Of a stretch of DNA of 64,000 nt, positions 6,596 through 64,000 are shown one piece after another. The notes below the pieces were generated by a model that worked only from the letters and a program-made list of their open reading frames with translations, was not told the origin of the DNA and did no database searches. A program made the position numbers and the translations under genes. This stretch comes from an uncultured Candidatus Saccharibacteria bacterium (GTDB taxonomy: Bacteria > Patescibacteriota > Minisyncoccia > Phycocordibacterales > UBA9973). Numbering within the stretch: position 1 is the stretch's first letter; each line of letters starts with the position of its first letter. The DNA is taken from contig CAZGNC010000001.1 of NCBI GenBank assembly GCA_964527235.1, positions 83,220 to 147,219 on the forward strand, in the 5' to 3' direction.

Positions 6596-6622
6596 AGGCC
6601 CCGTGCTTGCGCGCGGGGCCAT
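6596..6622. terminator. GC hairpin GGCCCCGTGC-ttgc-GCGCGGGGCC at the left boundary of the GC-rich island
   Basis: Perfect stem with a T-rich tract on the minus-strand side (TCTTTGTTTTCTTTTTT), so it terminates the minus-strand lipoprotein gene. It may also act on the Clp-like gene. Confidence 0.55.
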
Positions 6623-6672
6623 GAATGTCTCTCTTTGATGTCAGCCGAGAGACGATTGGCTGTTTGCTTCAA

Positions 6673-8298: not shown

Positions 8299-8329
8299 GT
8301 GTTCCTCATCGGGGGTTCTTGTGTGGGAG

Positions 8330-9391
8330 CTACTTGCGTTCGCTTGGTGTCCATCGGAGCATGGCCCCGAGTCTCCATCCGATTCCTTTTGTGGGGTTGT
8401 TGGGTGTCTTAGCAAGAGTGTTCTGGCCATAGGTAATGTCTAGGTTCCAGATCGCTCTCGTATCCTTGGCGATCTGTAGTCCTGCGTCCAGACCTAGGCG
8501 ACCATAGTTGTTCTGCTGAACCCAGTTTCCGTTTACTCCCTCCGTGCCGGAGGTGCATGTAATCTCATCATGTCCACCGCCGGCGGTCAAGCCGAATGGG
8601 CCAGAGATGTCTCTCCTGATTCCAAGGTCGAACGATTTGTTCGCTTGGCTGCAGGTTCGACTTTGTCCTCTGGGCGAGTATCCAACCCGCCCTGTGAGTT
8701 CGAACGGGACGACGCGGGCCTTAGCAAAGAATCCCACACCAAATGTGAATGTCGAAAGGCGTTTTCTGCCTCCCGAAATCCCGTATCCGGGGCCGACAGC
8801 GAGGTCGATCCAGGACTCGTTCTTCTTCGCCTCTTCCTTCTTACCGCTGTCGGCGTTCGAGTTGTCGATCATCTTCTGGACCACCCCGGCGATTTGCGCC
8901 GTGGTGTCCTTCAGCGCACTGATGTCCTTCTTGGCCGACTGCATGTCGGTATTGAGCGTGTCGACTGCCTTGGTGACAGTCGCCAACGAGTCGTTCGGCG
9001 GTGCCGAGGCGACTGGGCAATCGAGGGAGATCATCACACCACGGTACTGCGGACCGCGTTGTGGTACTGCAATTCCCTTGGCATGAATTCGTCCGAGTTC
9101 GATCTTCTCGATCTCGTTCAGGATTCTTGTTACGTTACCTGCGCGGCGATCCGCGAGGTCTTGGTTCTGCTCCTTGTTGTTGGTTTTGTAGGGGGTTCCG
9201 TCTGCGAACCCCGTGACGTTGATATGGCACGAAGTGCCCGCGGCAATCGCAATCTCTTTCAATGCCAGACGGGTCTCGTCCTTACCAAGTGTGTACCCCA
9301 TGAAGGGGTATACGGTCGCCTTCGTTTCCTGCGCCTTGAGGGCGAAGGGGAAGATGGCGACCATGAGGATGGTCAGAATGAAGCGAAACAC
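8330..9391 (-). CDS. OmpA-domain protein with inverted architecture: N-terminal OmpA-like peptidoglycan-binding domain, coiled coil, C-terminal beta-rich (barrel-like) domain (high-GC island)
   Basis: GTG start with RBS AGGAG-acaaa-GTG. The track ORF is longer, with an upstream ATG. Signal peptide FRFILTILMVAIFPFALKAQE. OmpA-like motif INVTGFADGTPYK...NQDLADRRAGNVTRILNE. Coiled coil, then alternating-hydrophobic segments ending ...GWRLGAMLRWTPSERK. Confidence 0.65.
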   Translation of the reverse strand: MFRFILTILMVAIFPFALKAQETKATVYPFMGYTLGKDETRLALKEIAIAAGTSCHINVTGFADGTPYKTNNKEQNQDLADRRAGNVTRILNEIEKIELGRIHAKGIAVPQRGPQYRGVMISLDCPVASAPPNDSLATVTKAVDTLNTDMQSAKKDISALKDTTAQIAGVVQKMIDNSNADSGKKEEAKKNESWIDLAVGPGYGISGGRKRLSTFTFGVGFFAKARVVPFELTGRVGYSPRGQSRTCSQANKSFDLGIRRDISGPFGLTAGGGHDEITCTSGTEGVNGNWVQQNNYGRLGLDAGLQIAKDTRAIWNLDITYGQNTLAKTPNNPTKGIGWRLGAMLRWTPSERK

Positions 9392-9691
9392 TTTGTCTCC
9401 TGCGTTGTTGGTTGTGTGACTATTCTTCGGCTTCCCGGTAAGCGTTTGTGTTATTCTATAGCTTTTTTCGTAGTTGAAGTTGTCAAGGTACTGTGATGCC
9501 GGGGGATCCGGCCCACAGAGATTGTTCTCATAAAGACGGATTCCGACTACTGACCTATTACTAGCATAAAAAGTGCATTTTGTCAATGCCTAGCTTGACG
9601 TTTTTGGATTTTATGAAAAAGACAAAGCCGGGTAGCGTGGTGTTCGCTATCCCGGCTCGGATGTCCTCGTTGATGTCCCCTGAGGAAGGGG

Positions 9692-51996: not shown

Positions 51997-52380
51997 ATGA
52001 GGAAATTAAACATAATTCTAGTTCTTCTTATAGTTGTTTTGAGTGCAACAACTTTTTATTTTTACAGGAATAGTCAAATTTCTAAAGGTCCTGGATCAAA
52101 AACTATTGATCAAACTGAAGCCAAAGCCCTATCTGACAAAGTGGGGAAATTAATAATGTTACCTTCGGATGAAATTCCTACAATCGCGACCGTTTCAGAC
52201 CCTGAGGCTCTCAAAGATCAGTCTTTCTTTGTTGATGCAAAGAAGGGTGACAAGGTTCTGATATATTCAAATGCCAAAAAGGCAATCCTTTATGACCCAG
52301 TAGCCAACAAGATCATAACAGTTGCCCCTCTTGATACTAAAAACCAAAATCCAAATTCTACCCAATCCGGAACTCCATAA
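51997..52380 (+). CDS. Small TM-anchored hypothetical protein, paralog 1 of a tandem pair
   Basis: Shares GKLIMLPSDEIPTIATVSDPEALKDQSFFVDAKKGDKVLIYSNAKKAILYDPVANKII with the next gene. Extended -10 TGTTATAAT lies 7 nt before the ATG. Confidence 0.55.
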   Translation: MRKLNIILVLLIVVLSATTFYFYRNSQISKGPGSKTIDQTEAKALSDKVGKLIMLPSDEIPTIATVSDPEALKDQSFFVDAKKGDKVLIYSNAKKAILYDPVANKIITVAPLDTKNQNPNSTQSGTP

Positions 52381-52433
52381 TAATTGACTTTTGTAGTTGT
52401 ATTTCTGAAATAGAACTATGTTATAATATTTAA

Positions 52434-52874
52434 ATGAGAAAGTTTGCCTGGGAGCATCTTCCGTTGATTTTGGTGTTTTTGCTCGTTGTTGTGGGCTCTT
52501 TGACTGAATATTTTTATGAAAATGATGTCGTGTATGAGAACCCCAATTTAATTGCTGAAAGTCAGGTCAGTGTTTATACAGAAAAGATTGGTAGGCTGGT
52601 GTTTCTACCAAAGGATGAGATACCAAGTGTTGCCACAGTGTCTGAGCCAGAACTTCTAAATAATCAGATATTTTTCGCAGAAGCGAAGAAGGGATATATA
52701 GTGCTTATTTATTCAAACGCAAAGAAGGCTATATTGTATGACCCAATAGCAGACAAAATTATTGCCATGGCTTCAGTCAATATAGGTGATGTAGAGCAAT
52801 CAGCTGAAATGTTGCCGGATTTACAGCCTGGGCAATTTAAAGAGTCAGACACGACAACAGAGAATCAATTTTAG
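52434..52874 (+). CDS. Small TM-anchored hypothetical protein, paralog 2
   Basis: GRLVFLPKDEIPSVATVSEPELLNNQIFFAEAKKGYIVLIYSNAKKAILYDPIADKII. Confidence 0.55.
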   Translation: MRKFAWEHLPLILVFLLVVVGSLTEYFYENDVVYENPNLIAESQVSVYTEKIGRLVFLPKDEIPSVATVSEPELLNNQIFFAEAKKGYIVLIYSNAKKAILYDPIADKIIAMASVNIGDVEQSAEMLPDLQPGQFKESDTTTENQF

Positions 52875-52890
52875 ATTAAAATATTTATTC

Positions 52891-53967
52891 ATGCGATTTT
52901 TAGATCTTAAAAAATATTTTCCAGAAACCATACTCATCGTATTTTTTCTATTGTTCGGTGTTGCTTACTTTGCAAGTGCAGAGACTCTGACTAGTACGAA
53001 TTTTATTATCAAAGATCCAGTGATAGGCACAGGAGGGGGCTACGGATCTTCTGCTAGTTTTCAATTGCTTTCTGAGGGTGATAAAGTTTTGACCGGAGCA
53101 GGCTCATCTACTTCTTTTATTGGGCATTATGGATTTTTATATTATCCATTCATTACTGAAGCTGTGCTTACCGCCGTTGCCAATGGTTCTGATGGCGACC
53201 TGACTTGGACTGCCTCTGATGCTGGACAAGGCTGGACTGTATCAGGCTACAACGTGGGTAAGGCGACAGCACCTGGCGGTCCTTATACTTACATTGATGT
53301 CGGCAATGTGTTGCTTTATAGTTATGACAATCTTGCACCCGGGGATTACTGCTTTGTGGTGCAGACTTATGATGTGTTTGATTATGTGATTGCTACATCT
53401 AATGAAGACTGTATAACGATATTACCCACCATTGTTTTCGACTTAGACACTGAGGCTGGCGGTGGCACAGGAGAATCTTCTACTCCATATAGTGTAGGTT
53501 TGGGAGTTATCTCGACCTCAGACACCCGTGTCTCTGGAACTACCGATGGCATACAGATGATTGTCGCTGAAGGAGAGACAAATGCTACGAGTGGCGTGGT
53601 AGTCACTGTGCGTAATACGAATGGTGCAAATGGTCTGGCTTCCACCTCAGTGCCTGCTGATGATATCGATAGTGCTGATGGCACCATGGCTGATGGCACA
53701 GAGAACTATGGTTTATGTGTGGCGACTGCAGGACTTACTGGGTTTGCTCGATCTTCACCTTACAATTCTGGTACTTGTGCGACCGATTCCGAAACCAATG
53801 ACATTCAGGGTTTGACTTCAGTGGGGGAGAATATATTAAATTCTGCGACGGTACCGATGGTGGGAGGTCATGCTGAGATTATAGTCAATGGCGCCATTAG
53901 CAACATCACTCCTGCTCATTCGGATTACACCGACACCTTAACTTTCATTGCGACCAGCACATTTTAG
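52891..53967 (+). CDS. Secreted cell-surface protein, paralog A (divergent N-terminal half, conserved C-terminal ~190 aa)
   Basis: Signal peptide ...AYFASAET. The C-terminal region is ~80% identical at protein level to paralog B (SSTPYSVGLGVISTSDTRVSGTTD...HSDYTDTLTFIATSTF). Confidence 0.6.
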   Translation: MRFLDLKKYFPETILIVFFLLFGVAYFASAETLTSTNFIIKDPVIGTGGGYGSSASFQLLSEGDKVLTGAGSSTSFIGHYGFLYYPFITEAVLTAVANGSDGDLTWTASDAGQGWTVSGYNVGKATAPGGPYTYIDVGNVLLYSYDNLAPGDYCFVVQTYDVFDYVIATSNEDCITILPTIVFDLDTEAGGGTGESSTPYSVGLGVISTSDTRVSGTTDGIQMIVAEGETNATSGVVVTVRNTNGANGLASTSVPADDIDSADGTMADGTENYGLCVATAGLTGFARSSPYNSGTCATDSETNDIQGLTSVGENILNSATVPMVGGHAEIIVNGAISNITPAHSDYTDTLTFIATSTF

Positions 53968-54067: not shown

Positions 54068-55225
54068 ATGATAAAGAAATTAGGTAGTTTGTCTTTCGCC
54101 AAGTTCGTTAGCGGTTTCACTATATTGGCTATACTCACAGTTATGGCTGCTCCACAGCCAGCACAAGCTGCGTCAGTCACTAGTGCCAAGGCTACATTTG
54201 GTAGACTGAAGGCAAGTACTGCCAATGAATACGGCACCATTGAATTCGCTACTCCCACAGGCATACAGACTGGAGGTGCTGATACCATAAGCTTTACTTT
54301 CAGTGCTGACTTTACTCTAGCTGCTGAGTCCGCAAACAACTTCGACATAGAGCTTGGAGACAGTGCTACTTGTTCTTCTGCTGTTTATACCGATGAAGTT
54401 GTTGCGTTGACTGCTTCGGCTACAGATTGGGGAGTGGATGTGACTGGCAATGTGATAACTCTTTCTCCTGAAACTGACCAGACTCTTACAGCAGGATTCT
54501 GTATGAGACTTGTTTGGGGTACAGCTGCTACAACTGGAGCTACTGGTTCTGCGAGTACTATAACTAACGGAGCTGCAGACGATGATGACACGATAGTTAT
54601 CGGTGGAGTTTTTGGTGATTCAGGAACTATTACAGTAGACATAATCGACGATGATCAAGTTACAGTTACTGCAACAGTAAACCAGAGTATTACTTTCGAC
54701 CTAGACACCTCTGTGGCTGATGGCGAAACATCTACTCCTTACTCTGTTGCTTTGGGCACAATAACAGTAACCGATACAAGAGTTTCTGGAAGCACTGATT
54801 CTGTTAATATGATTATTGCTGAGTTAGACACAAACGCTTCTGGCGGTGCTGTGGTGACTGTAAGAAATGCTAATGGTGCCAACGGCCTAGCTTCTACTTC
54901 AGTGCCAGCAGACAACATAGGTAGTGCAGATGGTACCATAGCAGATGGCACTGAGAACTATGGTCTGTGTGTTATGTCAGTAACGCAAACTGCTGGTACT
55001 CTAGCAAAAGCGTCTCCATATAACGCTGGAACATGTGCAACTAACTCTGAGACCAACGACATACAAGGCTTAACTACTACTGGAGAAAATATTTTAAACT
55101 CTTCTTCTGCTCCTATCGCAGGAGGACATGCTGAGATCGCAGTTAACGCTGCTATCTCTGGGGTTACAGTAGCGCATTCTGATTACACTGACACTCTGAC
55201 TTTCGTTGCGACCGGAACTTTCTAG
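54068..55225 (+). CDS. Secreted cell-surface protein, paralog B
   Basis: Signal peptide ...AAPQPAQAAS. C-terminal TSTPYSVALGTITVTDTRVSGSTD...HSDYTDTLTFVATGTF. The DNA is only ~70% identical to paralog A, so the duplication is old. Confidence 0.6.
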   Translation: MIKKLGSLSFAKFVSGFTILAILTVMAAPQPAQAASVTSAKATFGRLKASTANEYGTIEFATPTGIQTGGADTISFTFSADFTLAAESANNFDIELGDSATCSSAVYTDEVVALTASATDWGVDVTGNVITLSPETDQTLTAGFCMRLVWGTAATTGATGSASTITNGAADDDDTIVIGGVFGDSGTITVDIIDDDQVTVTATVNQSITFDLDTSVADGETSTPYSVALGTITVTDTRVSGSTDSVNMIIAELDTNASGGAVVTVRNANGANGLASTSVPADNIGSADGTIADGTENYGLCVMSVTQTAGTLAKASPYNAGTCATNSETNDIQGLTTTGENILNSSSAPIAGGHAEIAVNAAISGVTVAHSDYTDTLTFVATGTF

Positions 55226-55249: not shown

Positions 55250-56281
55250 ATGAAAAACCACTCAAATTGCAGAGTATTGCTAACACTTTTCACGATAATA
55301 ACACTCGGCATTTGTTTGTATCCGGGAAACGCTGATGCGATAACCATAACTCCAACTCGCTTTGAGGTGAGTGGCAACCCAGGAGAAACTCTAAGCTATG
55401 AGATACTACTTATAAACGAAACTGAATCCTCAGAAACTTTTTACCCTTCGTTTTCAAACTTTGAAGCTCAAGGGGACACTGGTAGCCCTGCTTTCACTGA
55501 GCCTACTGATGATCTAGGAACTTGGATGTCGGCCGACATGTCGTCGGTGTATCTTGCACCAAGACAGCAGAAGATAGTTCCATTTAAAATTCAAATACCT
55601 AAAGATGCAGAACCAGGAGGGCATTTTGCTGTGATATTCTGGGGTACTTCTCCTCCCAATGGAGCTCCTGGTGTCGCAGTTGGTGCCAAGACTGGAGTTC
55701 TTGTCCTTCTTTCTGTGAATGGAGATGTTCGAGAGGAGGCGGGGTTGTTGGATTTCAATACTAAAGATAAAAAGTTTTTCTATAAGACCTTACCAGTTTC
55801 CTTTGAATATAGATTGAGAAATGACGGAGGAGACAGAATAAAACCAAATGGTGTTATAAAAGTAAGAAACACTTTCTTCTTGCCATCTGAGAAATTAGAT
55901 GCAAACCCTGTACAGGGAAACGTCTTACCAAGCAGTACACGAAAGTTCAAGATTGATTGGGTTGAATATGAAAGAGCTCTAGATTATGTGCCACCTACTG
56001 GAGTATTCAAGAAATTCTGGAGTGAGACAGTCTATCAATGGAGAAACTTCGCAGTTGGCTTGTATTCAGCAAATCTAAACATAGAATACGGTACGCAAGG
56101 CGCTAAAGCTAAAAGCACATCTTTCTTCTTTGTCTTTCCTTGGCAACTTGTATCAGTGTTGTTACTAATATTTATTATAGTCTTCTGGGGTGGTAAGAAA
56201 ATTATCAGACGCTACAATAGATTTATAATCGAGAAGGCAAGGGCTGGTATGCATTTACCGTCCGATTCTTCTCATGTCTAA
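55250..56281 (+). CDS. Cell-surface protein with signal peptide and C-terminal TM anchor plus basic tail (DUF916-like architecture)
   Basis: SP ...CLYPGNADA. C-terminal VLLLIFIIVFWGGKKIIRRYNRF. Confidence 0.4.
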   Translation: MKNHSNCRVLLTLFTIITLGICLYPGNADAITITPTRFEVSGNPGETLSYEILLINETESSETFYPSFSNFEAQGDTGSPAFTEPTDDLGTWMSADMSSVYLAPRQQKIVPFKIQIPKDAEPGGHFAVIFWGTSPPNGAPGVAVGAKTGVLVLLSVNGDVREEAGLLDFNTKDKKFFYKTLPVSFEYRLRNDGGDRIKPNGVIKVRNTFFLPSEKLDANPVQGNVLPSSTRKFKIDWVEYERALDYVPPTGVFKKFWSETVYQWRNFAVGLYSANLNIEYGTQGAKAKSTSFFFVFPWQLVSVLLLIFIIVFWGGKKIIRRYNRFIIEKARAGMHLPSDSSHV

Positions 56282-57167
56282 TTCTTTTAAATTTTATCTT
56301 GTTTTTTCTTTAGCTCTATTTGTTTCTTGTTTTTGCGTTAGAGTTGTTTTGGCACAAACTGGACCAGTTACTGAGAATGTGAATGTAACTGCCAGGGTTG
56401 GCGAGGAAGTAGTAGTCACTCCTGGAGGCCCTAGCGGGGGTAGTGTGGCTTCGCCAGCTACTGCGGTGAGATTTTCTGGACAGGCTTACCCTAACGCAAG
56501 TGTTAAGCTTTTAAAGTGGGGTCAAGAACAGGTGGAAGTGTTTGCAGATCAAAACGGAAATTTCTCTATTACGTTGCCAGAATATTATGATGCTAGTGTG
56601 CTTTACTCGCTTACCGCTGAGGATATATTCGGGAACAGGTCTCTAATAATCAACTATCCTCTGGTTGTTAAGGTTGGCTTTGTTACGCATCTAAGTGGTG
56701 TGCGATTTGCTCCAACAATAGTGACAGATAAAACTGAAGTTAAATCCGGAGACTATTTAACGGTTAGCGGCTATGCATTACCAAGTCAGAATATGGAAAT
56801 ATTAGTAGATGGGGCAGCGAAGCGTAATTTTTCCTTAGTTTCAAATTCTGATGGAACTTACAAGATAGTCTTACCACTCTCTCTCTTGCCGAAAGGTGAA
56901 TACACAGTTTCTATACACTATATAAACGATGATCGATTTAGTAAATTAGTAAAATTTATAATAGGTGAGTTGAATATTCTTAATGCTGACATATTACTAA
57001 ACATTCCGGGGGATTGTAATACTGATAAAATAATAAACTTAGTTGATTTCTCAGTGCTAGCATTCTGGTATGGTAAACCCAATCCGCCTGTGTGTGTTGA
57101 TACGAATGCAGACAAGAAAATCGACTTGATAGACTTCTCAATATTAGCTTTTTATTGGACTGGATAA
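56274..57167 (+). CDS. Secreted protein with C-terminal dockerin-like domain
   Basis: Signal peptide. Two tandem Ca-binding dockerin segments GDCNTDKIINLVDFSVLAFWY and DTNADKKIDLIDFSILAFYW, with D/N at positions 1, 3, 5, 9 and 12 plus the following aromatic/Leu pattern. Confidence 0.7.
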   Translation: MSNSFKFYLVFSLALFVSCFCVRVVLAQTGPVTENVNVTARVGEEVVVTPGGPSGGSVASPATAVRFSGQAYPNASVKLLKWGQEQVEVFADQNGNFSITLPEYYDASVLYSLTAEDIFGNRSLIINYPLVVKVGFVTHLSGVRFAPTIVTDKTEVKSGDYLTVSGYALPSQNMEILVDGAAKRNFSLVSNSDGTYKIVLPLSLLPKGEYTVSIHYINDDRFSKLVKFIIGELNILNADILLNIPGDCNTDKIINLVDFSVLAFWYGKPNPPVCVDTNADKKIDLIDFSILAFYWTG

Positions 57168-57168
57168 T

Positions 57169-58053
57169 ATGAATAAATATTTACGATACTTTTTTATAGG
57201 AATTATTTTTTTTCTCAGTCCTCTAGCCACCATACTAGCAGCGGAGGTTTCTTTCGATGCACCGAAGCAAGTATACTTAGGTGAAGTTTTTAATGTTCCG
57301 GTAAATGTGGACAGTGGTGGGGTAATGATTAATTCTGTTGATTTGTCTATAGATTTCAATGAAGATATGATTGTTTTTTCAGGCTATAAGAGTGATGACG
57401 GAATTGTGAAGCTATGGGTTAAATCCCCAACTGACGAGAATGGTGTGCTCAAAATGAGTGGGATTATTCCTGGTGGAGTGTCAGGCCTGTATGATCCTAA
57501 AGAGAGTGGATTAAGAGCCGTGCCAGTGGTAAGTTTAATTTTCACTGCAAATAAGACTGGCAATGCCGAATTTTATTTTACAGATTCTAAAGTTTTCAAA
57601 CATGATGGTAAGGGTACTGAGATTGAACATCAACGATCTAGCGCTTCAGTCACGATTGTAGATGATCCAGATTCTGATCCTAGTATCGTTAAAGATATAA
57701 ATATTACTGATACTGATAAACCAGAGCCCTTCGAGATGGTTTTCCTAAATTCAGCATTCTTTGGTCGCACACCTTCTATGATTATTTTTGAAACTACTGA
57801 CAAAACTTCTGGGGTTAAGGAGTTTCGCATGAAGGCTGTAGGTGATACATGGTTTACGGTAAAAAGTCCGTATCCTGTGTCTAAAGGTCTTTTCCCTAGG
57901 AGTGTGGTTGTTAGGGCTTATGATTTTTATGATAATTTTCAAGAAAGTTCTGTGAGAGTGCCAGGCATCATGGGTTCGAAGTTCTTCTGGGGCTTTGTTG
58001 TCTGGTTGTTGTTTTGTTTGGGAGTATATAAAGTGTTAAAATATAAATCATGA
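57169..58053 (+). CDS. Cohesin-like domain protein with C-terminal TM anchor
   Basis: SP, then AEVSFDAPKQVYLGEVFNVPVNVDSGGVMINSVDLSIDFNEDMIVFSGY...GVLKMSGII, the cohesin beta-sandwich pattern. C-terminal TM FFWGFVVWLLFCLGVY. Confidence 0.6.
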   Translation: MNKYLRYFFIGIIFFLSPLATILAAEVSFDAPKQVYLGEVFNVPVNVDSGGVMINSVDLSIDFNEDMIVFSGYKSDDGIVKLWVKSPTDENGVLKMSGIIPGGVSGLYDPKESGLRAVPVVSLIFTANKTGNAEFYFTDSKVFKHDGKGTEIEHQRSSASVTIVDDPDSDPSIVKDINITDTDKPEPFEMVFLNSAFFGRTPSMIIFETTDKTSGVKEFRMKAVGDTWFTVKSPYPVSKGLFPRSVVVRAYDFYDNFQESSVRVPGIMGSKFFWGFVVWLLFCLGVYKVLKYKS

Positions 58054-59168
58054 GAGCTATTTTAAATTCCAAGGTCTTCAGTATATTGCTGTTTGGCTTC
58101 CTAATAGCTAATGTGGCTCACGCACAAACTCCTAGCGTATTTTTCAGCACACCGCCTAAGCAGATTCACGAGGGTGAGAGGCTGACTGTTGATGTAAAAA
58201 TTCAATCACCAGGTAAGTCCGTAAACGCTATTTCTGGAGTTATTTCGTATCCAGAAAGTTTGGTGAATGTCGCTTCAATTTCAAAAGACAAGAGCATCAT
58301 CAATATTTGGACCCGTGAACCGAAAGCCAGTAAGGGCCGAATTGTGTTTGAGGGTGTTGCGCTCAATCCAGGATTCGAAGGTTACAATGGTTTGGTTTTT
58401 AGGATTACCTTTGAAGCAAAACGCACAGGCACTGTGTTCCTCAAGATTACCGAAGGGGCGGTGTTGGCGAACGATGGTCGGGGTACGAATGTTCTAGCTA
58501 GTTTGGGTTCTACTAACTTCAATATTATCCAAGGTCTTACTCCTGCACCAACTATTGCCGAAGTAATAACCCCAGAAGGTGGCACCAAGCTAACCGCCTT
58601 GCCTGTCATCATTGAATATTCACCTTTAGTTAATACTAAAGAAGGACTCTTTGTAAAAGGTAAAGGCGAGCCGAATGCTCTAACCAAGATTGTTTTCAAA
58701 GATGTCTCAGTCAAGTCTATAGGCGAGCAATTAATTGCAATGCTTCAGACTAAGAAGAAAAAGCTTAATGAAGTTTTGGTTCAAAACGATGAGATTGGCG
58801 GATTCAATTATATTAGCCCTAAGAACTTAGTTGCAGGGGTGTATAATGCAACGCCGTTCTTGGTTGAAGAGAGTACCAACACAGAGAAGCCTGGTTTTGG
58901 TGTTCAGCTTCTGGTTGACGATAGTAAGATAGTGAAGTGGCTTGTGGTGTTGATAAATGTATTAGGATTGTTGATTCCGGTTGTCGCATTGATCGTTGTT
59001 ATATACTTTATTCCTTGGTATTCCTTTAGACGAATGCGGGTGATTAAGAAGAAGCTTGGGTTAGAAGAGGAACAGCTAGACCTCACCGAGCATCAGCTAG
59101 AACGGCAAGACAAAAGTCAGGATAAGCCTCTTATTCCACCTTTCATACCACCCACAGGTACGCAATAA
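58050..59168 (+). CDS. Cohesin-like domain protein with C-terminal TM anchor and coiled-coil or Pro-rich tail
   Basis: SP, then PPKQIHEGERLTVDVKIQSPGKSVNAISGVISYPESLVNVASI...GLVFRITFEAKRTGTVFLKITEGAVL. C-terminal TM WLVVLINVLGLLIPVVALIVVIYFIPWY. Confidence 0.6.
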   Translation: MRAILNSKVFSILLFGFLIANVAHAQTPSVFFSTPPKQIHEGERLTVDVKIQSPGKSVNAISGVISYPESLVNVASISKDKSIINIWTREPKASKGRIVFEGVALNPGFEGYNGLVFRITFEAKRTGTVFLKITEGAVLANDGRGTNVLASLGSTNFNIIQGLTPAPTIAEVITPEGGTKLTALPVIIEYSPLVNTKEGLFVKGKGEPNALTKIVFKDVSVKSIGEQLIAMLQTKKKKLNEVLVQNDEIGGFNYISPKNLVAGVYNATPFLVEESTNTEKPGFGVQLLVDDSKIVKWLVVLINVLGLLIPVVALIVVIYFIPWYSFRRMRVIKKKLGLEEEQLDLTEHQLERQDKSQDKPLIPPFIPPTGTQ

Positions 59169-59211: not shown

Positions 59212-60306
59212 ATGAGGATGTCTAGGTATAATTTTATACTCGCTTTAGTTCTATTTTTGGCTGCTTTTCCAGTATTTGGACAGACAAGTGATTTACTTTC
59301 CCCTGAAGAAGAATTATGGTTAAAGTCTCGCAACAATACCATAGTAGTTTATCCCGAGAAAAACAATCCTCCTTTTTCTTACACTAGTGCCAGTGGCAAC
59401 ATTCAAGGTCTAGCCATTGATTTCATTGAACTAATCGCTGAAAAAATAGATGCTAAGGTTGTTTATTTATTGCCACAGTCTCGCAGCCAAGTTTTAAATG
59501 ATTTCAAACAAGGCAAGGGTGATGTTGTGATCGGTGTTATGGACACAGAGAGTCGAGGCGCAGAACTTATTTTTTCTGATTCTTTTGTCACCGTGCCGAC
59601 TGTGATAGTAGTTAGGAAAGATTTTGAAAAAAGAAAAGCTCTAACTCTCAATGATTTTAACGGGAAGAGAGTTGCGATGGTTGATGACTCTGCTTTGGAG
59701 GAATATGTGAAGAAAAATTATCCCAGAGTTGTTATAGAAGACGTTACCGATGACGAGGTGAGTTTACAGCAGGTCATACTTGGTGAAGTCGATGCTGCAG
59801 TGATGGATATAGCATCTCTATCTTTTTATCTTTCAAAGCAAGTTCTTAGTAGTGTAAAAGTAGTAGGGAATACTGGGCTTGATTACAAGCCTGCCATGGC
59901 GCTTCTCCCCAACAACACCATTCTGCAATCAATATTAGAGAAGGGCATGACTCAGATTAGCACCACTGATCGCAGTGTTTTAAATGACAAATGGATTATT
60001 ACACCAGGAGAACCCGAGACAGAAAGCCCCGTCTTAGATATCTTTCAGGGACATGCTGATATTATAGTACCTTATGCTTTGCTGGTTTTAGTATTAGTTA
60101 TTGTTGCTTTCAGGCTTGTGTCTCATAGGCGCCATGATTTAGAGCATTTACATAAAGTAGATACAGTGGTAGATCTTAAAAAAGAAGTCTCTGAGCTAGA
60201 GAGCACTAACGACATATTGGCTGCTGAGATGAGATTGATAAAAGAAAAAGAAGATAAACTTCAAGAGAAAATAAACTCTATAGCCCAAGAACACACACAA
60301 CCATAG
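59212..60306 (+). CDS. Periplasmic substrate-binding (SBP_bac_3-like) domain fused to a TM helix and C-terminal coiled coil, with no output domain
   Basis: SP. SBP-like NTIVVYPEKNNPPFSY...GLAIDFIELIAEKI. TM IIVPYALLVLVLVIVAF. Coiled coil to the C-terminus. Confidence 0.55.
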   Translation: MRMSRYNFILALVLFLAAFPVFGQTSDLLSPEEELWLKSRNNTIVVYPEKNNPPFSYTSASGNIQGLAIDFIELIAEKIDAKVVYLLPQSRSQVLNDFKQGKGDVVIGVMDTESRGAELIFSDSFVTVPTVIVVRKDFEKRKALTLNDFNGKRVAMVDDSALEEYVKKNYPRVVIEDVTDDEVSLQQVILGEVDAAVMDIASLSFYLSKQVLSSVKVVGNTGLDYKPAMALLPNNTILQSILEKGMTQISTTDRSVLNDKWIITPGEPETESPVLDIFQGHADIIVPYALLVLVLVIVAFRLVSHRRHDLEHLHKVDTVVDLKKEVSELESTNDILAAEMRLIKEKEDKLQEKINSIAQEHTQP

Positions 60307-60405: not shown

Positions 60406-61212
60406 ATGGTGAGTCAAAAAAAATCTTCAAATTTTAATTCAAAAAACACTTCTAAAAAAAGTAATGTTTTGCGCGTTCAAGTAGATGGAATTTACAAGAA
60501 AAGAAAATTTACTGAAGTAAAAGACGAAAAAGTTGTATGCAATTTAAGTAGTATAGATAGTGATAAAGTTGAAGAAATTAATTCAGTAGATGATAACAGG
60601 CGTCTATTTCTGAAAGCTGCTGGTGTTGCTGGTTTGGGCTTGGCGGCAGGGGCTTTATTTCCAAAAGGTGCTGAGGCGTACGTTGCTGGTAGTACGCCGA
60701 CTTCAAATGTCGTGGGGTCTAAGGACGCTTCAAACGTCCGAATAAATCCAGCCAAAGAAGATGGCAACTTAGCAACTATTGCTGGGAAAGACTTTGCCAC
60801 ACAGACAACCCTGGCGGCGATGAAAGCCAAGACGGATTTACTGACTTTCGATGGTAGTAATAATCTTCTAACTGCGTCTAGTGGTGGAGCTTCATCTGTT
60901 AAAATAAAAGATACTTCGAATACCGAAGTAAACCCTGCCACAGAAGATAGCATGATGTTGCTTAGAAGAATTCTAAGACAAATGGACTCATTGGCTGTCG
61001 TAGATTCTGCGCAAAGACAGAAAGTCACAGTTGAAGGTGCAACTATTACAAGTGGAACCATTACGACAGTAACCACAGTAACCACAGTTTCTACTCTAAC
61101 TTCAGCAACTAACTTAGTTGCACTCGGAGGTGTGGATGGTAGGTATTTATATATTGATACTGCACGAAATGCTTCAGCGAATGGTATTAGAGGTAACTTA
61201 TTATTTTCATAA
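60406..61212 (+). CDS. Hypothetical Thr-rich protein with an internal twin-arginine-like motif (NRRLFLKAAGVAGLGLAAGALF)
   Basis: RRLFLK plus a hydrophobic stretch at aa ~64-90. Ends at a TAA that is in frame with, and 3 nt before, the next large ORF. Confidence 0.45.
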   Translation: MVSQKKSSNFNSKNTSKKSNVLRVQVDGIYKKRKFTEVKDEKVVCNLSSIDSDKVEEINSVDDNRRLFLKAAGVAGLGLAAGALFPKGAEAYVAGSTPTSNVVGSKDASNVRINPAKEDGNLATIAGKDFATQTTLAAMKAKTDLLTFDGSNNLLTASSGGASSVKIKDTSNTEVNPATEDSMMLLRRILRQMDSLAVVDSAQRQKVTVEGATITSGTITTVTTVTTVSTLTSATNLVALGGVDGRYLYIDTARNASANGIRGNLLFS

Positions 61213-61215
61213 TAT

Positions 61216-64000
61216 ATGGCTGTTACAAATAATCTTAAAGCTCAAGTAGATTTACCCGTATGGGAATGGTGTAGATTTGCCCCTACTGCTTCTGTTGCTC
61301 TTTCAGGTATGGCCACCGCTGATGATGGGACAGCTAGGTTTATATATTACATGACAACAGCGACTTTCTATCGCTATGATACTTATGCTGATACATGGCA
61401 ACAGCTCGCTACTCCTAACACTACTCCTGTTACTATTCTTTCTTTACGATATACAGGATTTCGTGGTTATCACGGTAGAGTGTTGAGTGCGACAAGTACC
61501 ACAGTGCAAATTCCTGGCCTTAGGGGGCCAACGCTAAATGGTAAGACTTTAAAAATATTAAGTGGCACGGGTATGGGTCAGGAGAGAGTGTTGACTTACA
61601 CGGGGGAAACTATTCATGATGCTGGGGTTATCACAGGTACCACGACAGCTACATTGGTGGACTCCACAAAGAAGTGGAGGTTCAATCAATGGTCGGGTTA
61701 CCTTGTTGGTATAACTTTCGGTACAGATGCGACTCAGTACAAGAAGATTCTATACAATGATGCTACCACTCTTTATATCCAGGATTCAAACTTACAACCA
61801 CAGGATCCATGGAATAACCAGATTTTCGTTGCAGCAGCACCTTATGCATTACCTGTTACTACTGCAGGTTCTCAGGCACATTTTCAGATTTTATCTAGTA
61901 CATTCTCAGTAGCTTCATGGGATGTTACTCCGGATTATACTTCTTACTTTACTACCACAACTGGTGGAATTTATTTACTTTCCTCAGCCGCTGCTGCGCC
62001 ATTCTTTACTTTACAGTATTACGATATTATCCATGATTCATGGCAAACTAAAACTTGTAACCAGGGTTTAATTCAGGCTGCATTTGGTACTGATTGTACT
62101 TTTGAAAGATTGGCAAAGACAGGTACAGCTTTTCTTTCATCAACTGCTACGGCTGGGTCAGCACGTACTGTCACTGATTCTGTGCAGACTTTAACAGTAG
62201 ATAGATATGCCAATTATAGAATTTTAATCACTGGCGGTACTGGTATTGGTCAAAGCCGAAGAATCATTTGCAACACTACCACCGTGTTTACAGTCAATAA
62301 GGCCTGGGATGTTACACCTGACAATACTTCTACTTATGAAATATGGGGAGATTACGACAAAGCATTTATGGCAGGAGGTGCAGCAGGTGCTTTGTATGCT
62401 TATTCTCCGAGTAATGATTTTTGGATGCAGGGACAGAGCTTCGATGATGGAATTGTAGCTAACATCGCAGTAAAGATGAATGGCTGGGAAGCCCTAGGTG
62501 TAACTTCTGGAGTAAGAATTGCTTCGGGAGTTACAGCAGTGAATCCTGTTCCGACCGCGGGTGGGACAGGATATGTGGTTGGAGATATTTTAACTTGCTC
62601 TGTTGGTGGTACAGGTGCTCGTGTGATAGTTACTTCTACTACATTTTCTGGTTCCTCTGGTGTTGTCACCGGTATTGAACTTGTTGCCTCTGGTACTGTA
62701 ACTGGTTTTACTACAGGCACTGGTAAGGCTACTACCGGTGGTACTGGTACAGGATGCACAATAGAAATAACTTCAGTGGGGGCTACTTGTTTAGTAACCA
62801 CTGCTTCAGCAAACTGGTTTAAGACAGGGGATTCTGTAACTTTCTCTGGTTGCACCGAAGCTGCATATAATGCTGCCCATACTATCTTAGGAGTTGGAAG
62901 TACTACAACTTTTGATGTTGCTGTTTCTGCTACAGCTAACATGGCAGCAAGTAATTCTCAGTCGACAACTGTTATAGTTGACCCTACAAAGAGCTGGACG
63001 ACTAATGAGCACGTAGGTAAGTTGGTGCACCTTTCTGTGGCTGGTACTGCACCTACTGCGCAGATAAGATGGATTACCGCGAATACTGCAACAACTTTAA
63101 CTGTTGCAACTATAGTTGCGGGTGTTAATGGTACTTCAAAGTATGCAATTTACGATTCTAAAGTCTTCGGAACTGATAATCAATTCAAACCAGCTAATCA
63201 GCAAAATTGGGGTCATGCTTCTAGTGGATCTACCACTACTTTAGTAGATTCTTCAAAAAGTTGGGTTACCAACTGTTGGGCGGGTTATAAACTTCGCATA
63301 GAGTCTGGCACTGGCTTCGCTTCGGGAATTATTTCTATTGTTTCAAATACTGCTACGACTTTAACCTATGCGTCACAATCTTTTACCCCTGATGCTACTA
63401 CTCACTATGAAATTGCTGATAGTTGGGGTTTGATAACTGCCGGTGGTACTACTACACCTGTTACCGAAACGACTACGAAAAACTGGACTACTAACATGTG
63501 GGCAGGAAAAAGATTGCGAATCACAGGAGGCACAGCTTTAGGGCAGGAGGGAACTATAACCTCAAACACTGCTACAGCTCTCACCACTGCAGCGCTTACT
63601 TTGACTGATACGACTTCTACATATGCAATTCTTGGCATCCCAGCTCGTGGTGCAGGTATTCAGTTGATTTGGCTATGGAATAATTCAGATTCCACCACTA
63701 AGGGTAAATATATGTTCTTGCCGAGAGGTGGAGCGTCTAACACTGCTGATATATATGACATCACGACCTCTCGTTGGATATATGGGTACTTTTATTCACC
63801 GCAGGCAGAAACTCTTACCACTGGGTCAATGTATGCATATGATGGTCATAACACTATTTACTTCCAAAAAGATGCAACAGGAAGAGTGTATGCATATAAT
63901 TTTACCACCAATGATATTAAATTATTAGGTACTATACCTTACGGACACTCCACGGCTATAGTTGGTAATAGAATGGAGATAATAGAAACAGCAGATGGTT
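61216..64000 (+). CDS. Partial (>928 aa, open at the window end) giant repeat protein with ~50-aa [ST]K-x-W-x-x-N-x-W-x-G...GTG-x-GQ...NT-x-T-x-LT repeats and a C-terminal Kelch/beta-propeller-like region
   Basis: Frame 1 from the ATG at 61216 stays open to position 64000. It is absent from the track because no stop lies in the window. Repeats include STTVIVDPTKSWTTNEHVGKLVHL..., STTTLVDSSKSWVTNCWAGYKLRIESGTGFASG...NTATTLTY and TKNWTTNMWAGKRLRITGGTALGQEGTITSNTATALT. Confidence 0.6.
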   Translation, partial: MAVTNNLKAQVDLPVWEWCRFAPTASVALSGMATADDGTARFIYYMTTATFYRYDTYADTWQQLATPNTTPVTILSLRYTGFRGYHGRVLSATSTTVQIPGLRGPTLNGKTLKILSGTGMGQERVLTYTGETIHDAGVITGTTTATLVDSTKKWRFNQWSGYLVGITFGTDATQYKKILYNDATTLYIQDSNLQPQDPWNNQIFVAAAPYALPVTTAGSQAHFQILSSTFSVASWDVTPDYTSYFTTTTGGIYLLSSAAAAPFFTLQYYDIIHDSWQTKTCNQGLIQAAFGTDCTFERLAKTGTAFLSSTATAGSARTVTDSVQTLTVDRYANYRILITGGTGIGQSRRIICNTTTVFTVNKAWDVTPDNTSTYEIWGDYDKAFMAGGAAGALYAYSPSNDFWMQGQSFDDGIVANIAVKMNGWEALGVTSGVRIASGVTAVNPVPTAGGTGYVVGDILTCSVGGTGARVIVTSTTFSGSSGVVTGIELVASGTVTGFTTGTGKATTGGTGTGCTIEITSVGATCLVTTASANWFKTGDSVTFSGCTEAAYNAAHTILGVGSTTTFDVAVSATANMAASNSQSTTVIVDPTKSWTTNEHVGKLVHLSVAGTAPTAQIRWITANTATTLTVATIVAGVNGTSKYAIYDSKVFGTDNQFKPANQQNWGHASSGSTTTLVDSSKSWVTNCWAGYKLRIESGTGFASGIISIVSNTATTLTYASQSFTPDATTHYEIADSWGLITAGGTTTPVTETTTKNWTTNMWAGKRLRITGGTALGQEGTITSNTATALTTAALTLTDTTSTYAILGIPARGAGIQLIWLWNNSDSTTKGKYMFLPRGGASNTADIYDITTSRWIYGYFYSPQAETLTTGSMYAYDGHNTIYFQKDATGRVYAYNFTTNDIKLLGTIPYGHSTAIVGNRMEIIETADG

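What the first reader, a model, noticed from the sequence alone, without database searches (positions are those of the whole stretch)
56274..59168. Compact cohesin-dockerin trio: one secreted dockerin protein followed by two membrane-anchored cohesin-like proteins
Gene 56274-57167 ends in two canonical Ca-binding dockerin segments. The next two genes each carry an N-terminal cohesin-like beta-sandwich and a C-terminal TM anchor. Together they look like a minimal surface-display system that docks a secreted protein onto membrane-anchored scaffolds. There are no glycoside hydrolases here. The module sits inside a large locus of secreted or adhesin-like proteins. The donor-scaffold arrangement in a reduced-genome lineage that may be an episymbiont suggests attachment or surface organisation rather than cellulolysis.
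Basis: partly seen in the sequence, partly recalled or inferred. Interest (0 to 1): 0.75.

Follow-up and report, generated by a model that had tools for sequence, protein, structure and literature searches.

The report
Patescibacterial dockerin plus twin membrane cohesins
Three back-to-back genes of a tiny-celled (Patescibacteria) bacterium do encode one secreted protein ending in a dockerin "plug" and two membrane-anchored proteins carrying cohesin "sockets"; the trio keeps the same order in nearly all of the 80 related species loci examined and most likely builds a non-enzymatic protein complex on the cell surface, though binding itself is still untested.

Summary
Gene 56274-57167 ends in a duplicated Ca-loop/helix dockerin. 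Genes 57169-58053 and 58050-59168 each have a signal peptide, an N-terminal cohesin fold (AlphaFold models; the top PDB matches are almost all cohesins), a second beta domain and one C-terminal TM helix.

Alone, the window proteins fall below Pfam thresholds. Their families supply the support: 34/41, 20/38 and 6/43 members hit dockerin or cohesin models.

The trio is not a stand-alone "minimal" unit. It is the invariant core of a larger cassette:
- small TM proteins;
- two secreted proteins sharing a portable C-terminal domain;
- a remote WxLIP/DUF916 homologue;
- dockerin protein, cohesin-TM, cohesin-TM;
- a membrane-tethered solute-binding protein.

A scan found 258 genome stretches with relatives. 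In 74 of 76 informative loci, the two cohesin types directly follow the dockerin gene. No glycoside hydrolase or CBM is nearby.

Best reading (about 0.6): a Ca-dependent cohesin-dockerin surface complex that holds a stalk/adaptor protein on the membrane, for adhesion or envelope organisation.

This is a new variant of the known non-cellulosomal cohesin-dockerin kind, of moderate interest.

The parts
51997..52874 (+). gA/gB: two small paralogous proteins (127 and 146 aa), each with an N-terminal TM segment. They sit at the head of the cassette.
   Evidence: ORFs. A homologue lies on the same strand upstream of the cassette in 31 related loci. No Pfam family.
52891..53967 (+). g0: secreted protein. 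It has a head (NF-motif segment plus an FN3-like region, aa 1-175) and a ~185-aa C-terminal domain shared with g1.
   Evidence: The head is fused to the dockerin protein in L049, L052, L059, L076 and L079.
54068..55225 (+). g1: secreted protein with a different N-terminal region and the same C-terminal domain (69% identity to g0).
   Evidence: The C-terminal domain lies at the very C-terminus of 653 representative proteins, those listed 151-2955 aa. No Pfam hit and no hhalign similarity to a WxL protein.
55250..56281 (+). g2: signal peptide, two beta-sandwich domains, a C-terminal TM helix and a short basic tail. It is a remote WxLIP (DUF916) homologue.
   Evidence: 29/36 family members hit PF06030, best 3.8e-5. 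tblastn hits proteins annotated as DUF916. hhalign gives 93.7%, E 1.9e-7, against a Paenibacillus DUF916 protein adjacent to a WxL gene. Topology.
56274..57167 (+). g3: secreted dockerin protein. Layout: signal peptide (aa 1-27), Big_6 Ig-like domain (aa 66-124), second beta-sandwich (aa ~152-219), dockerin (aa 245-297).
57006..57164 (+). Dockerin module of g3. Ca loop/helix segment 1 spans 57012-57077 and segment 2 spans 57099-57164. Cys248 and Cys274 covary.
   Evidence: Motif. The two segment consensus sequences are almost identical over 68 loci. Cys covariation is 42 both, 26 neither, 0 single. It is the most conserved part of the protein.
57169..58053 (+). g4: signal peptide (aa 1-24), cohesin (aa 25-165; nt 57241-57663), conserved Ig/FN3-like domain (aa ~185-265), TM helix (aa 270-291; nt 57976-58041) and a 3-residue tail.
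58050..59168 (+). g5: signal peptide (aa 1-25), cohesin (aa 28-161; nt 58131-58532), second beta domain (aa ~175-290), highly conserved TM helix (aa ~296-323) and a conserved charged helical cytoplasmic tail (aa 324-372).
59212..60306 (+). g6: signal peptide, SBP_bac_3 solute-binding domain, TM helix and a cytoplasmic coiled-coil tail. It follows g5 in the nearer clade.
   Evidence: Pfam E 2.6e-17. Synteny. Topology.

Best explanation
The three genes encode a non-cellulosomal cohesin-dockerin assembly on the outer face of the cytoplasmic membrane of a Patescibacteria (Paceibacteria-type) cell.

Proposed mechanism:
- g3 is exported by Sec and folds into an Ig-like stalk ending in a Ca2+-binding dockerin.
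- g4 and g5 are type I membrane proteins. Each has an N-terminal cohesin held away from the membrane by a second beta domain.
- The dockerin inserts its two nearly identical helices onto the cohesin 8-3-6-5 sheet of g4 and/or g5. This tethers the stalk protein to the cell.
- The trio works together with the neighbouring WxLIP-like anchor (g2) and the two secreted proteins that share a C-terminal attachment-type domain (g0, g1).
- Together they form a multi-subunit surface structure used for adhesion or envelope organisation, not for polysaccharide degradation.

Shown: domain identities, topology, operon coupling, deep conservation of gene order, and the absence of enzymes.
Inferred: cohesin-dockerin binding, stoichiometry, and the adhesion role.
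For: Domain identities.
- Dockerin: sequence motif, 34/41 family Pfam hits, and PDB dockerin hits.
- Cohesin folds: AF2 plus Foldseek for both proteins.

Compatible topology. All three modules are extracytoplasmic. g3 has only a signal peptide, while g4 and g5 have one C-terminal TM helix.

Translational coupling. Junctions have 1-8 nt overlaps or spacers.

Conservation.
- 258 stretches in the species-representative genome collection encode a g3 relative.
- In 70 of 76 loci with enough downstream DNA, a g4-type ORF and then a g5-type ORF follow the dockerin ORF, with a median gap of 4 nt.
- Three more loci differ only through ORF-start artefacts and one is a g4-g5 fusion ORF, giving 74/76. This holds down to about 35% g3 identity.

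Exclusivity. There is one dockerin and two cohesins in the 64 kb window, and one dockerin-like ORF per ~15 kb related locus.

Conserved surfaces.
- The dockerin is the best conserved module: median identity to the window is 66%, against 35% for the g4 cohesin and 41% for the g5 cohesin.
- Its two helices are nearly invariant and alike.
- In g4, all 11 cohesin positions that are at least 85% conserved lie on strands 3, 5, 6, 8 or the loop after strand 8. In g5, 20 of 27 do.
- From established cohesin structures, that sheet is the dockerin-binding face. The strand numbering here is inferred from the DSSP order.

Anchor interchange. In five loci the g0 head is fused in front of the stalk-dockerin, and g0/g1/g2 are absent there. 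So the dockerin can replace the other C-terminal module as the means of attaching the same head.

No glycoside hydrolase or CBM in the cassette or its flanks.
Against: - No binding test or co-fold was possible.
- The window proteins themselves are below Pfam gathering thresholds, or have no hit at all.
- Many of the conserved cohesin positions are Gly or Pro and could be purely structural.
- Dockerin positions 10/11 and 17/18, which set specificity in cellulosomal dockerins, are hydrophobic or aromatic here (L-V, A-F). No solved complex is a direct precedent for that.
- In this clade g3 carries no recognisable cargo and is itself strongly conserved (57% mean column identity). 'Display of a secreted protein' is therefore an incomplete description.
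- The very conserved TM helix and cytoplasmic tail of g5, and the tethered solute-binding protein g6, hint at a role beyond passive anchoring.
Confidence: 0.6

Rival explanations
1. The folds are real but the modules do not pair with each other. The cohesin-like domains of g4 and g5 would be generic beta-sandwich adhesin or spacer domains, or would bind some other ligand. The dockerin-like EF-hand pair of g3 would be a Ca-dependent structural or wall/ligand-binding module. Co-location would reflect only a shared role in the envelope.
For: - No interaction data exist.
- Pfam scores are sub-threshold for the window proteins.
- From general knowledge of the families, many dockerin-like and cohesin-like modules outside cellulosomes have no demonstrated partner.
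- The dockerin contact positions are atypical.
Against: - The 1 dockerin to 2 cohesin unit is kept in the same order with near-zero spacers in 74/76 loci over deep divergence.
- The dockerin helices are the most conserved element.
- Conserved cohesin positions cluster on the canonical binding sheet.
- No other candidate partner of either module type lies nearby.
Confidence: 0.2
2. The cassette is mainly a trans-membrane sensing or signalling (or uptake-associated) complex. In this view the single-pass proteins g2, g4, g5 and g6 associate through conserved TM helices and cytoplasmic tails. The SBP_bac_3 domain of g6 senses a solute or host cue. The cohesin-dockerin contact only holds the extracellular parts together.
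For: - The g5 TM helix and tail are nearly invariant, including polar and Pro residues (N303, P310, P322) and an RRMRV...LEEE tail.
- The g2 TM helix and tail are conserved.
- g6 is a solute-binding domain tethered by a TM helix, with a coiled-coil tail.
- A response-regulator gene follows the cassette in L004.
Against: - g6 is absent from the more distant loci that still keep the trio.
- No kinase, cyclase or transporter domain lies in the cassette.
- No response regulator is adjacent in the window.
Confidence: 0.12
3. A miniature cellulosome: the cohesins scaffold dockerin-bearing polysaccharide-degrading enzymes encoded elsewhere in the genome.
For: Cohesin and dockerin are the defining cellulosome modules. 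Only 64 kb of the genome could be inspected.
Against: - No GH, CBM, PL or CE domain is in the cassette, its flanks or the related loci examined.
- The only dockerin found is on an Ig-like stalk protein.
- From general knowledge, Patescibacteria have minimal catabolic repertoires.
- The cohesin proteins carry a single cohesin each and are membrane-anchored, with no CBM.
Confidence: 0.03

Closest known systems
Type I cohesin-dockerin pairs of clostridial cellulosomes (e.g. C. thermocellum 1ohz; C. cellulolyticum 2vn5/2vn6, dual binding mode)
   Same: - Same two folds.
- The dockerin is a duplicated 22-residue Ca loop plus helix.
- The two segments are near-identical, as in dual-binding-mode dockerins.
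- The cohesin models superpose on these structures.
   Different: - No enzymes, no CBM and no multi-cohesin scaffoldin.
- Single cohesins sit on two separate membrane proteins.
- Hydrophobic or aromatic residues occupy the usual specificity positions.
- The linker between segments is short.
- A covarying Cys pair is present.
- The lineage is Patescibacteria.
Non-cellulosomal cohesin-dockerin modules of Clostridium perfringens glycoside hydrolases/toxins (2w1n, 2vo8, 2jh2, 2ozn)
   Same: - These are the best structural and profile matches.
- The cohesin followed by an FN3/Ig-like domain in 2w1n mirrors the two-domain ectodomains of g4 and g5.
- The pair is used for protein-protein assembly outside a cellulosome.
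   Different: There, both modules are appended to large secreted enzymes. Here the cohesin carriers are small, TM-anchored and non-enzymatic, and the dockerin carrier is a stalk protein.
Archaeoglobus fulgidus non-cellulosomal cohesin (2xdh) and the wider set of cohesin/dockerin-like modules scattered over the three domains of life
   Same: A stand-alone cohesin in an organism with no cellulolytic life style. The g5 model matches 2xdh with TM 0.77.
   Different: Here there is a fixed 1 dockerin + 2 cohesin operon with membrane anchors, conserved across nearly all of the related species loci examined. To my knowledge, and in the searched library, that arrangement has not been described.
Anchoring scaffoldins (SLH-anchored SdbA/OlpB/Orf2p; sortase-anchored ScaE)
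   Same: A cohesin fixed to the cell envelope captures a dockerin-bearing partner.
   Different: The anchor here is a C-terminal TM helix, not SLH repeats or an LPXTG motif. The captured partner is not a scaffoldin.
WxL / WxLIP (DUF916-DUF3324-TM) surface clusters of Bacillota (PMC10599100)
   Same: - g2 is a remote WxLIP homologue.
- The layout of one WxLIP-like TM protein plus two secreted proteins sharing a C-terminal domain (one with a larger head) matches the canonical cluster of 1 WxLIP + 2 WxL.
- RCC1 heads occur on both kinds of C-terminal domain.
   Different: - The shared C-terminal domain of g0/g1 has no WxL motifs and no detectable similarity to WxL.
- No WxL cluster is known to include a cohesin-dockerin trio.

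Membership tests
Dockerin (PF00404) | Two tandem ~22-residue segments, each a Ca-binding loop with D/N at positions 1, 3, 5, 9 and 12, followed by a helix | tested here: met
   The segments are D247-K268 and D276-G297. The ligands are D247/N249/D251/N255/D258 and D276/N278/D280/D284/D287. These positions are conserved at 0.6-1.0 frequency over 68 loci.
Dockerin (PF00404) | Significant match to the curated family model | tested here: inconclusive
   The window protein scores 18.7 bits, E 0.002, below the gathering score of 22.9. 34/41 relatives match at E < 0.01, best 1.2e-6. The family profile hits solved dockerins, with 2y3n_B at E 6.4e-5.
Dockerin (PF00404) | Three-helix dockerin fold with two bound Ca2+ | not tested
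Cohesin (PF00963) | Nine-stranded beta jelly-roll superposable on solved cohesins | tested here: met
   For the g4 model, the top 24 PDB matches are all cohesins (2vo8 TM 0.79, rmsd 2.8). For the g5 model, the top matches are cohesins (2vo8 TM 0.81; 2xdh TM 0.77).
Cohesin (PF00963) | Significant match to the curated family model | tested here: inconclusive
   The two window proteins have no hit. 20/38 g4 relatives (best 1.2e-6) and 6/43 g5 relatives (best 1e-5) match. The g4 profile hits the NagJ cohesin at E 0.006. NCBI names several relatives 'cohesin domain-containing protein'.
Cohesin-dockerin pair | Ca2+-dependent high-affinity binding of the dockerin helices to the 8-3-6-5 face of the cohesin | not testable with these tools
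Only indirect support exists, from synteny and from conserved positions on strands 3, 5, 6 and 8.
Cellulosome | Dockerin-bearing carbohydrate-active enzymes and a scaffoldin with several cohesins and a CBM | tested here: not met
   No GH or CBM domains are in the cassette or its flanks. There is a single cohesin per protein and one non-enzymatic dockerin protein.
WxL cluster (WxLIP + WxL proteins) | WxLIP: DUF916 (PGBD) plus a second Ig-like domain plus a C-terminal TM helix | tested here: met
   For g2, 29/36 relatives hit PF06030, all below the gathering score. hhalign gives 93.7%, E 1.9e-7, over 182 columns against a bona fide DUF916 protein next to a WxL gene. The TM helix is shown. This is remote homology, and the second domain was not identified as DUF3324.
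WxL cluster (WxLIP + WxL proteins) | [quoted passage not shown] | tested here: not met
   The C-terminal domain of g0/g1 has no Trp, no PF13731 hit among 31 relatives, and hhalign probability 0.1% against a WxL protein. It is analogous only in position and architecture.

The most novel reading that the evidence does not exclude
One internally symmetric dockerin clamps the two different membrane cohesins at once, with one helix on g4 and the other on g5. This would give an obligate 1:1:1 heterotrimer.

That trimer would be the hub of a lineage-wide Paceibacteria surface machine with three further parts:
- a WxLIP-like anchor with interchangeable head proteins;
- a tethered solute-binding protein;
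- conserved TM helices and cytoplasmic tails that relay host contact into the cell.

In short, it would be a dedicated host-attachment and sensing apparatus of episymbiotic bacteria, built from cellulosome parts.
Probability: 0.12. Interest if true: 0.8.

Novelty: new variant of a known kind. Interest (0 to 1): 0.55.

Why it matters
Patescibacteria make up a large share of bacterial diversity, and most are thought to live attached to other cells. Outside a few cultured Saccharibacteria, almost nothing is known about the proteins on their surface.

This cassette is a concrete, widely conserved candidate for such a structure. It is found in 258 stretches of the species-representative genome collection and in hundreds of metagenome protein clusters.

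It can also be tested directly with small soluble domains: a dockerin of about 60 aa and cohesins of about 140 aa.

For the cohesin-dockerin field, it adds four things:
- a membrane-helix-anchored, enzyme-free arrangement of one dockerin and two cohesins;
- an unusual hydrophobic recognition code;
- a covarying Cys pair in the dockerin;
- a link between cohesin-dockerin docking and WxLIP-type surface clusters.

Tried and rejected
1. Co-folding. There is therefore no interface prediction.
2. Single-sequence searches of g4 and g5 against PDB sequences gave only noise. The g5 family profile against PDB sequences gave only E 0.66 to a cohesin. The fold comparison was needed to settle the question.
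3. WxL identity of the g0/g1 C-terminal domain was rejected. There were no Pfam or PDB hits. hhalign gave 0.1% against a Paenibacillus WxL protein, against its RCC1 neighbour, and against two Streptomyces neighbours of DUF916 genes.
4. The cellulosome reading was rejected, because no GH or CBM is present.
5. An intermolecular disulfide between dockerin and cohesin was rejected. The cohesin domains contain no Cys in the Cys-bearing clade.
6. Promoter and terminator scans over 51.8-61.6 kb found nothing beyond shuffled expectation.
7. The afdb50 fold library was unavailable.
8. Literature searches found no paper linking cohesin or dockerin with Paceibacteria, Parcubacteria or other CPR surface biology.
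9. The g4-g5 single ORF in L043 keeps the g4 TM helix and the g5 signal peptide in the middle. I do not count it as Rosetta-stone evidence.

Full report
**Observation**

The three ORFs are present exactly as described: g3 at 56274-57167 (297 aa), g4 at 57169-58053 (294 aa) and g5 at 58050-59168 (372 aa), all on the + strand. They are joined almost without spacers. The g2 stop overlaps the g3 start (ATGTCTAA), one base separates g3 from g4, and g4/g5 overlap as ATGA.

The last 53 residues of g3 contain two F-hand segments, DCNTDKIINLVDFSVLAFWYGK and DTNADKKIDLIDFSILAFYWTG. D/N occupy positions 1, 3, 5, 9 and 12 of each loop. A strict regular expression for that loop finds only these two sites in long ORFs of all six frames, plus one unrelated hit in the DNA polymerase gene.

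**Are the domain calls right?**

On their own, the window proteins are weak. Dockerin_1 scores 18.7 bits (E 0.002), below the gathering score of 22.9. g4 and g5 have no Pfam hit and no NCBIfam hit. Single-sequence searches of PDB sequences give a dockerin at E 0.007 for g3 and nothing for g4 or g5. The families settle the matter.

- g3 has more than 414 relatives of about 300 aa at 50-90% identity. Of 41 aligned members, 34 hit Dockerin_1 (best 1.2e-6) and 40 hit Big_6. The family profile finds solved dockerins (2y3n_B at E 6.4e-5, 5nrm_B at 0.011).
- g4 relatives hit PF00963 in 20 of 38 cases. The g4 profile finds the C. perfringens NagJ cohesin.
- g5 relatives hit PF00963 in 6 of 43 cases.
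- g4 and g5 are paralogues (E 8e-15), and each family HMM finds the other.
- The AlphaFold2 models have mean pLDDT 85.1 and 83.6. Foldseek against the PDB returns cohesins almost exclusively at the top. The first match for both is the cohesin-FN3 double module 2w1n, 2vo8 superposes at TM 0.79-0.81 and rmsd 2.7-2.8, and 2xdh from A. fulgidus matches g5 at TM 0.77.

Hydropathy and the models give the topologies. g3 has a signal peptide only. g4 and g5 each have a signal peptide, a cohesin, a second beta domain and one C-terminal TM helix. g5 also has a helical, charged cytoplasmic tail of about 50 aa.

**The surroundings**

The trio is the core of a larger cassette. The genes upstream are:
- two small paralogous TM proteins (51997-52874);
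- g0 and g1, secreted proteins with different heads and a shared C-terminal domain of about 185 aa at 69% identity;
- g2, with a signal peptide, two beta domains and a TM helix.

Downstream is g6, an SBP_bac_3 domain tethered by a TM helix with a coiled-coil tail.

g2 is a remote WxLIP/DUF916 homologue. 29 of 36 relatives hit PF06030. tblastn finds plasmid genes annotated as DUF916. hhalign gives 93.7% (E 1.9e-7) against the DUF916 protein that sits next to a WxL gene on a Paenibacillus plasmid.

The canonical WxL cluster is one WxLIP plus two WxL proteins (PMC10599100). That is the same layout as g2 plus g0/g1. However, the g0/g1 C-terminal domain shows no similarity to WxL. It is a portable module found at the very C-terminus of 653 representative proteins; those listed are 151-2955 aa long.

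Further upstream lie sugar-nucleotide and glycosylation genes, a beta-lactamase-like protein and two large secreted proteins. There is no glycoside hydrolase or CBM. The rest of the window holds housekeeping genes, including DnaE, HisRS, GAPDH, Tgt and RNase P RNA.

**Conservation**

A scan of one genome per species found 258 stretches that encode g3 relatives. Nearly all come from MAGs labelled Patescibacteria, Paceibacterota, Nomurabacteria, Minisyncoccia or similar. Some automatic labels, such as 'Saccharibacteria' and 'Gammaproteobacteria', are probably unreliable.

In the 80 loci fetched, the order g3-g4-g5 on one strand is nearly universal. Using family HMMs on the 76 loci with enough downstream DNA:
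- 70 have a g4-type ORF and then a g5-type ORF immediately after the dockerin ORF, with a median gap of 4 nt;
- three more differ only through ORF-start artefacts;
- one has both cohesins in a single ORF.

g2 and g0/g1 precede the trio in most loci, and g6 follows it in the nearer clade. No second dockerin-like ORF occurs in any locus.

**Clues to mechanism**

- The dockerin is the most conserved module. Median identity to the window is 66%, against 35% for the g4 cohesin and 41% for the g5 cohesin.
- The two dockerin segments have almost the same consensus, DxNxDxxINLVDFSILAF(W/Y)(Y/W). This internal symmetry underlies dual-binding-mode dockerins (established knowledge; 2vn5/2vn6 are among the structural hits).
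- In g4, all 11 cohesin positions that are at least 85% conserved lie on strands 3, 5, 6, 8 or the loop after strand 8. In g5, 20 of 27 do. In solved complexes the 8-3-6-5 sheet is the dockerin-binding face. That is my knowledge, and the strand numbers are inferred from the DSSP order. Many of these residues are Gly or Pro, so this is only suggestive.
- In five loci the g0 head (NF-motif plus an FN3-like region) is fused in front of the stalk-dockerin, and g0/g1/g2 are missing there. Other distant g3 proteins carry unrelated N-terminal extensions. The same head can thus be attached either through the g0/g1-type C-terminal domain or through the dockerin. This is what one expects if the dockerin is a cell-attachment module.

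**Most likely function**

I conclude, at a confidence of about 0.6, that g3 is held on the outer face of the membrane by Ca-dependent docking of its C-terminal dockerin onto the cohesins of g4 and/or g5. This trio, together with the WxLIP-like g2 and its secreted partners, would form a non-enzymatic surface complex for adhesion or envelope organisation.

Binding, stoichiometry and role are inferred.

The rivals are:
- independent modules that do not pair (0.2);
- a primarily sensing or signalling trans-membrane complex (0.12), suggested by the nearly invariant TM helix and tail of g5 and by the tethered solute-binding protein;
- a mini-cellulosome (0.03).

**Comparison and novelty**

Non-cellulosomal cohesins and dockerins are known in many bacteria and archaea. 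NCBI's pipeline already names some relatives 'cohesin domain-containing' or 'dockerin type I domain-containing'.

The new elements are:
- the fixed, deeply conserved operon of one dockerin and two cohesins;
- TM-helix anchoring;
- an enzyme-free stalk protein as the carrier;
- hydrophobic contact positions;
- the association with a WxLIP-type cluster.

No paper in the searchable library describes it. I rate it a new variant of a known kind, with interest 0.55.

**Unexplained**

Cys248 and Cys274 of the dockerin co-occur strictly: 42 loci have both, 26 have neither and none has only one. This argues for a disulfide. Yet in canonical dockerins the two Ca loops lie at opposite ends of the module (my knowledge). 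No model of g3 could be made to check this.

Noticed in passing
window 53413-53964 and 54665-55222 (C-terminal halves of g0 and g1): A ~185-aa domain is shared at 69% identity and ends in DYTDTLTF(I/V)AT(S/G)TF. It has a conserved Cys pair. It always sits at the extreme C-terminus of 653 representative proteins, those listed 151-2955 aa, one of which has an RCC1 head. It has no Pfam family and no detectable similarity to WxL. It looks like an undescribed portable C-terminal surface-attachment module of Patescibacteria.
   Followed up: partly
window 57015-57017 and 57093-57095 (Cys248, Cys274 of g3): The two dockerin cysteines co-occur strictly across 68 loci: 42 have both, 26 have neither and none has only one. 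Some Cys-less relatives carry a different Cys pair near loop 1. This implies a disulfide whose geometry does not obviously fit a canonical dockerin.
   Followed up: partly
L049:6377-7708, L052:6485-7774, L059:5939-7720, L076:6347-7720, L079:6255-7583: These are natural fusions of the g0 head (NF-motif plus an FN3-like region) in front of the stalk-dockerin protein. They occur in loci that lack g0, g1 and g2.
   Followed up: yes
window 58926-59165 (g5 TM helix and tail); 59212-60306 (g6): The TM helix of g5 (N303, P310, P322, W323) and its cytoplasmic RRMRV...LEEE helix are nearly invariant over 43 relatives. That is unusual for a passive anchor. g6 is a solute-binding domain tethered by a TM helix, with a coiled-coil tail. 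Together they hint at signalling or intramembrane assembly.
   Followed up: no
window 51997-52380 and 52434-52874: Two small paralogous proteins, each with an N-terminal TM segment and no known family. A homologue is kept at the head of the cassette in 31 related loci.
   Followed up: partly
L043:7809-9818: g4 and g5 are read as one 670-aa ORF, with the g4 TM helix and the g5 signal peptide retained in the middle. This may be a real polytopic fusion or just a lost stop codon.
   Followed up: partly
L053-L085, g5-type ORFs of ~570-610 aa: In the distant clade the second cohesin protein is about 200 aa longer. It carries extra beta domains, one of which resembles the conserved membrane-proximal domain of g4. 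g6 is absent there.
   Followed up: partly
window 6600-9600: This stretch has GC 0.55 against about 0.40 elsewhere, with long overlapping ORFs on both strands. The minus-strand ORFs encode a Pro-rich 585-aa protein and an OmpA-like (peptidoglycan-binding) 418-aa protein. There is no rRNA here.
   Followed up: partly
window 60406-61212 and 61216-63999: Downstream of the cassette are a 268-aa protein with a twin-arginine signal (TIGR01409, E 3.8e-4) and a protein of more than 928 aa with no known domain and no hydrophobic segment. Apart from a 226-aa homologue of the first in the close relative L006 (55% identity), neither is conserved next to the cassette in other loci.
   Followed up: no
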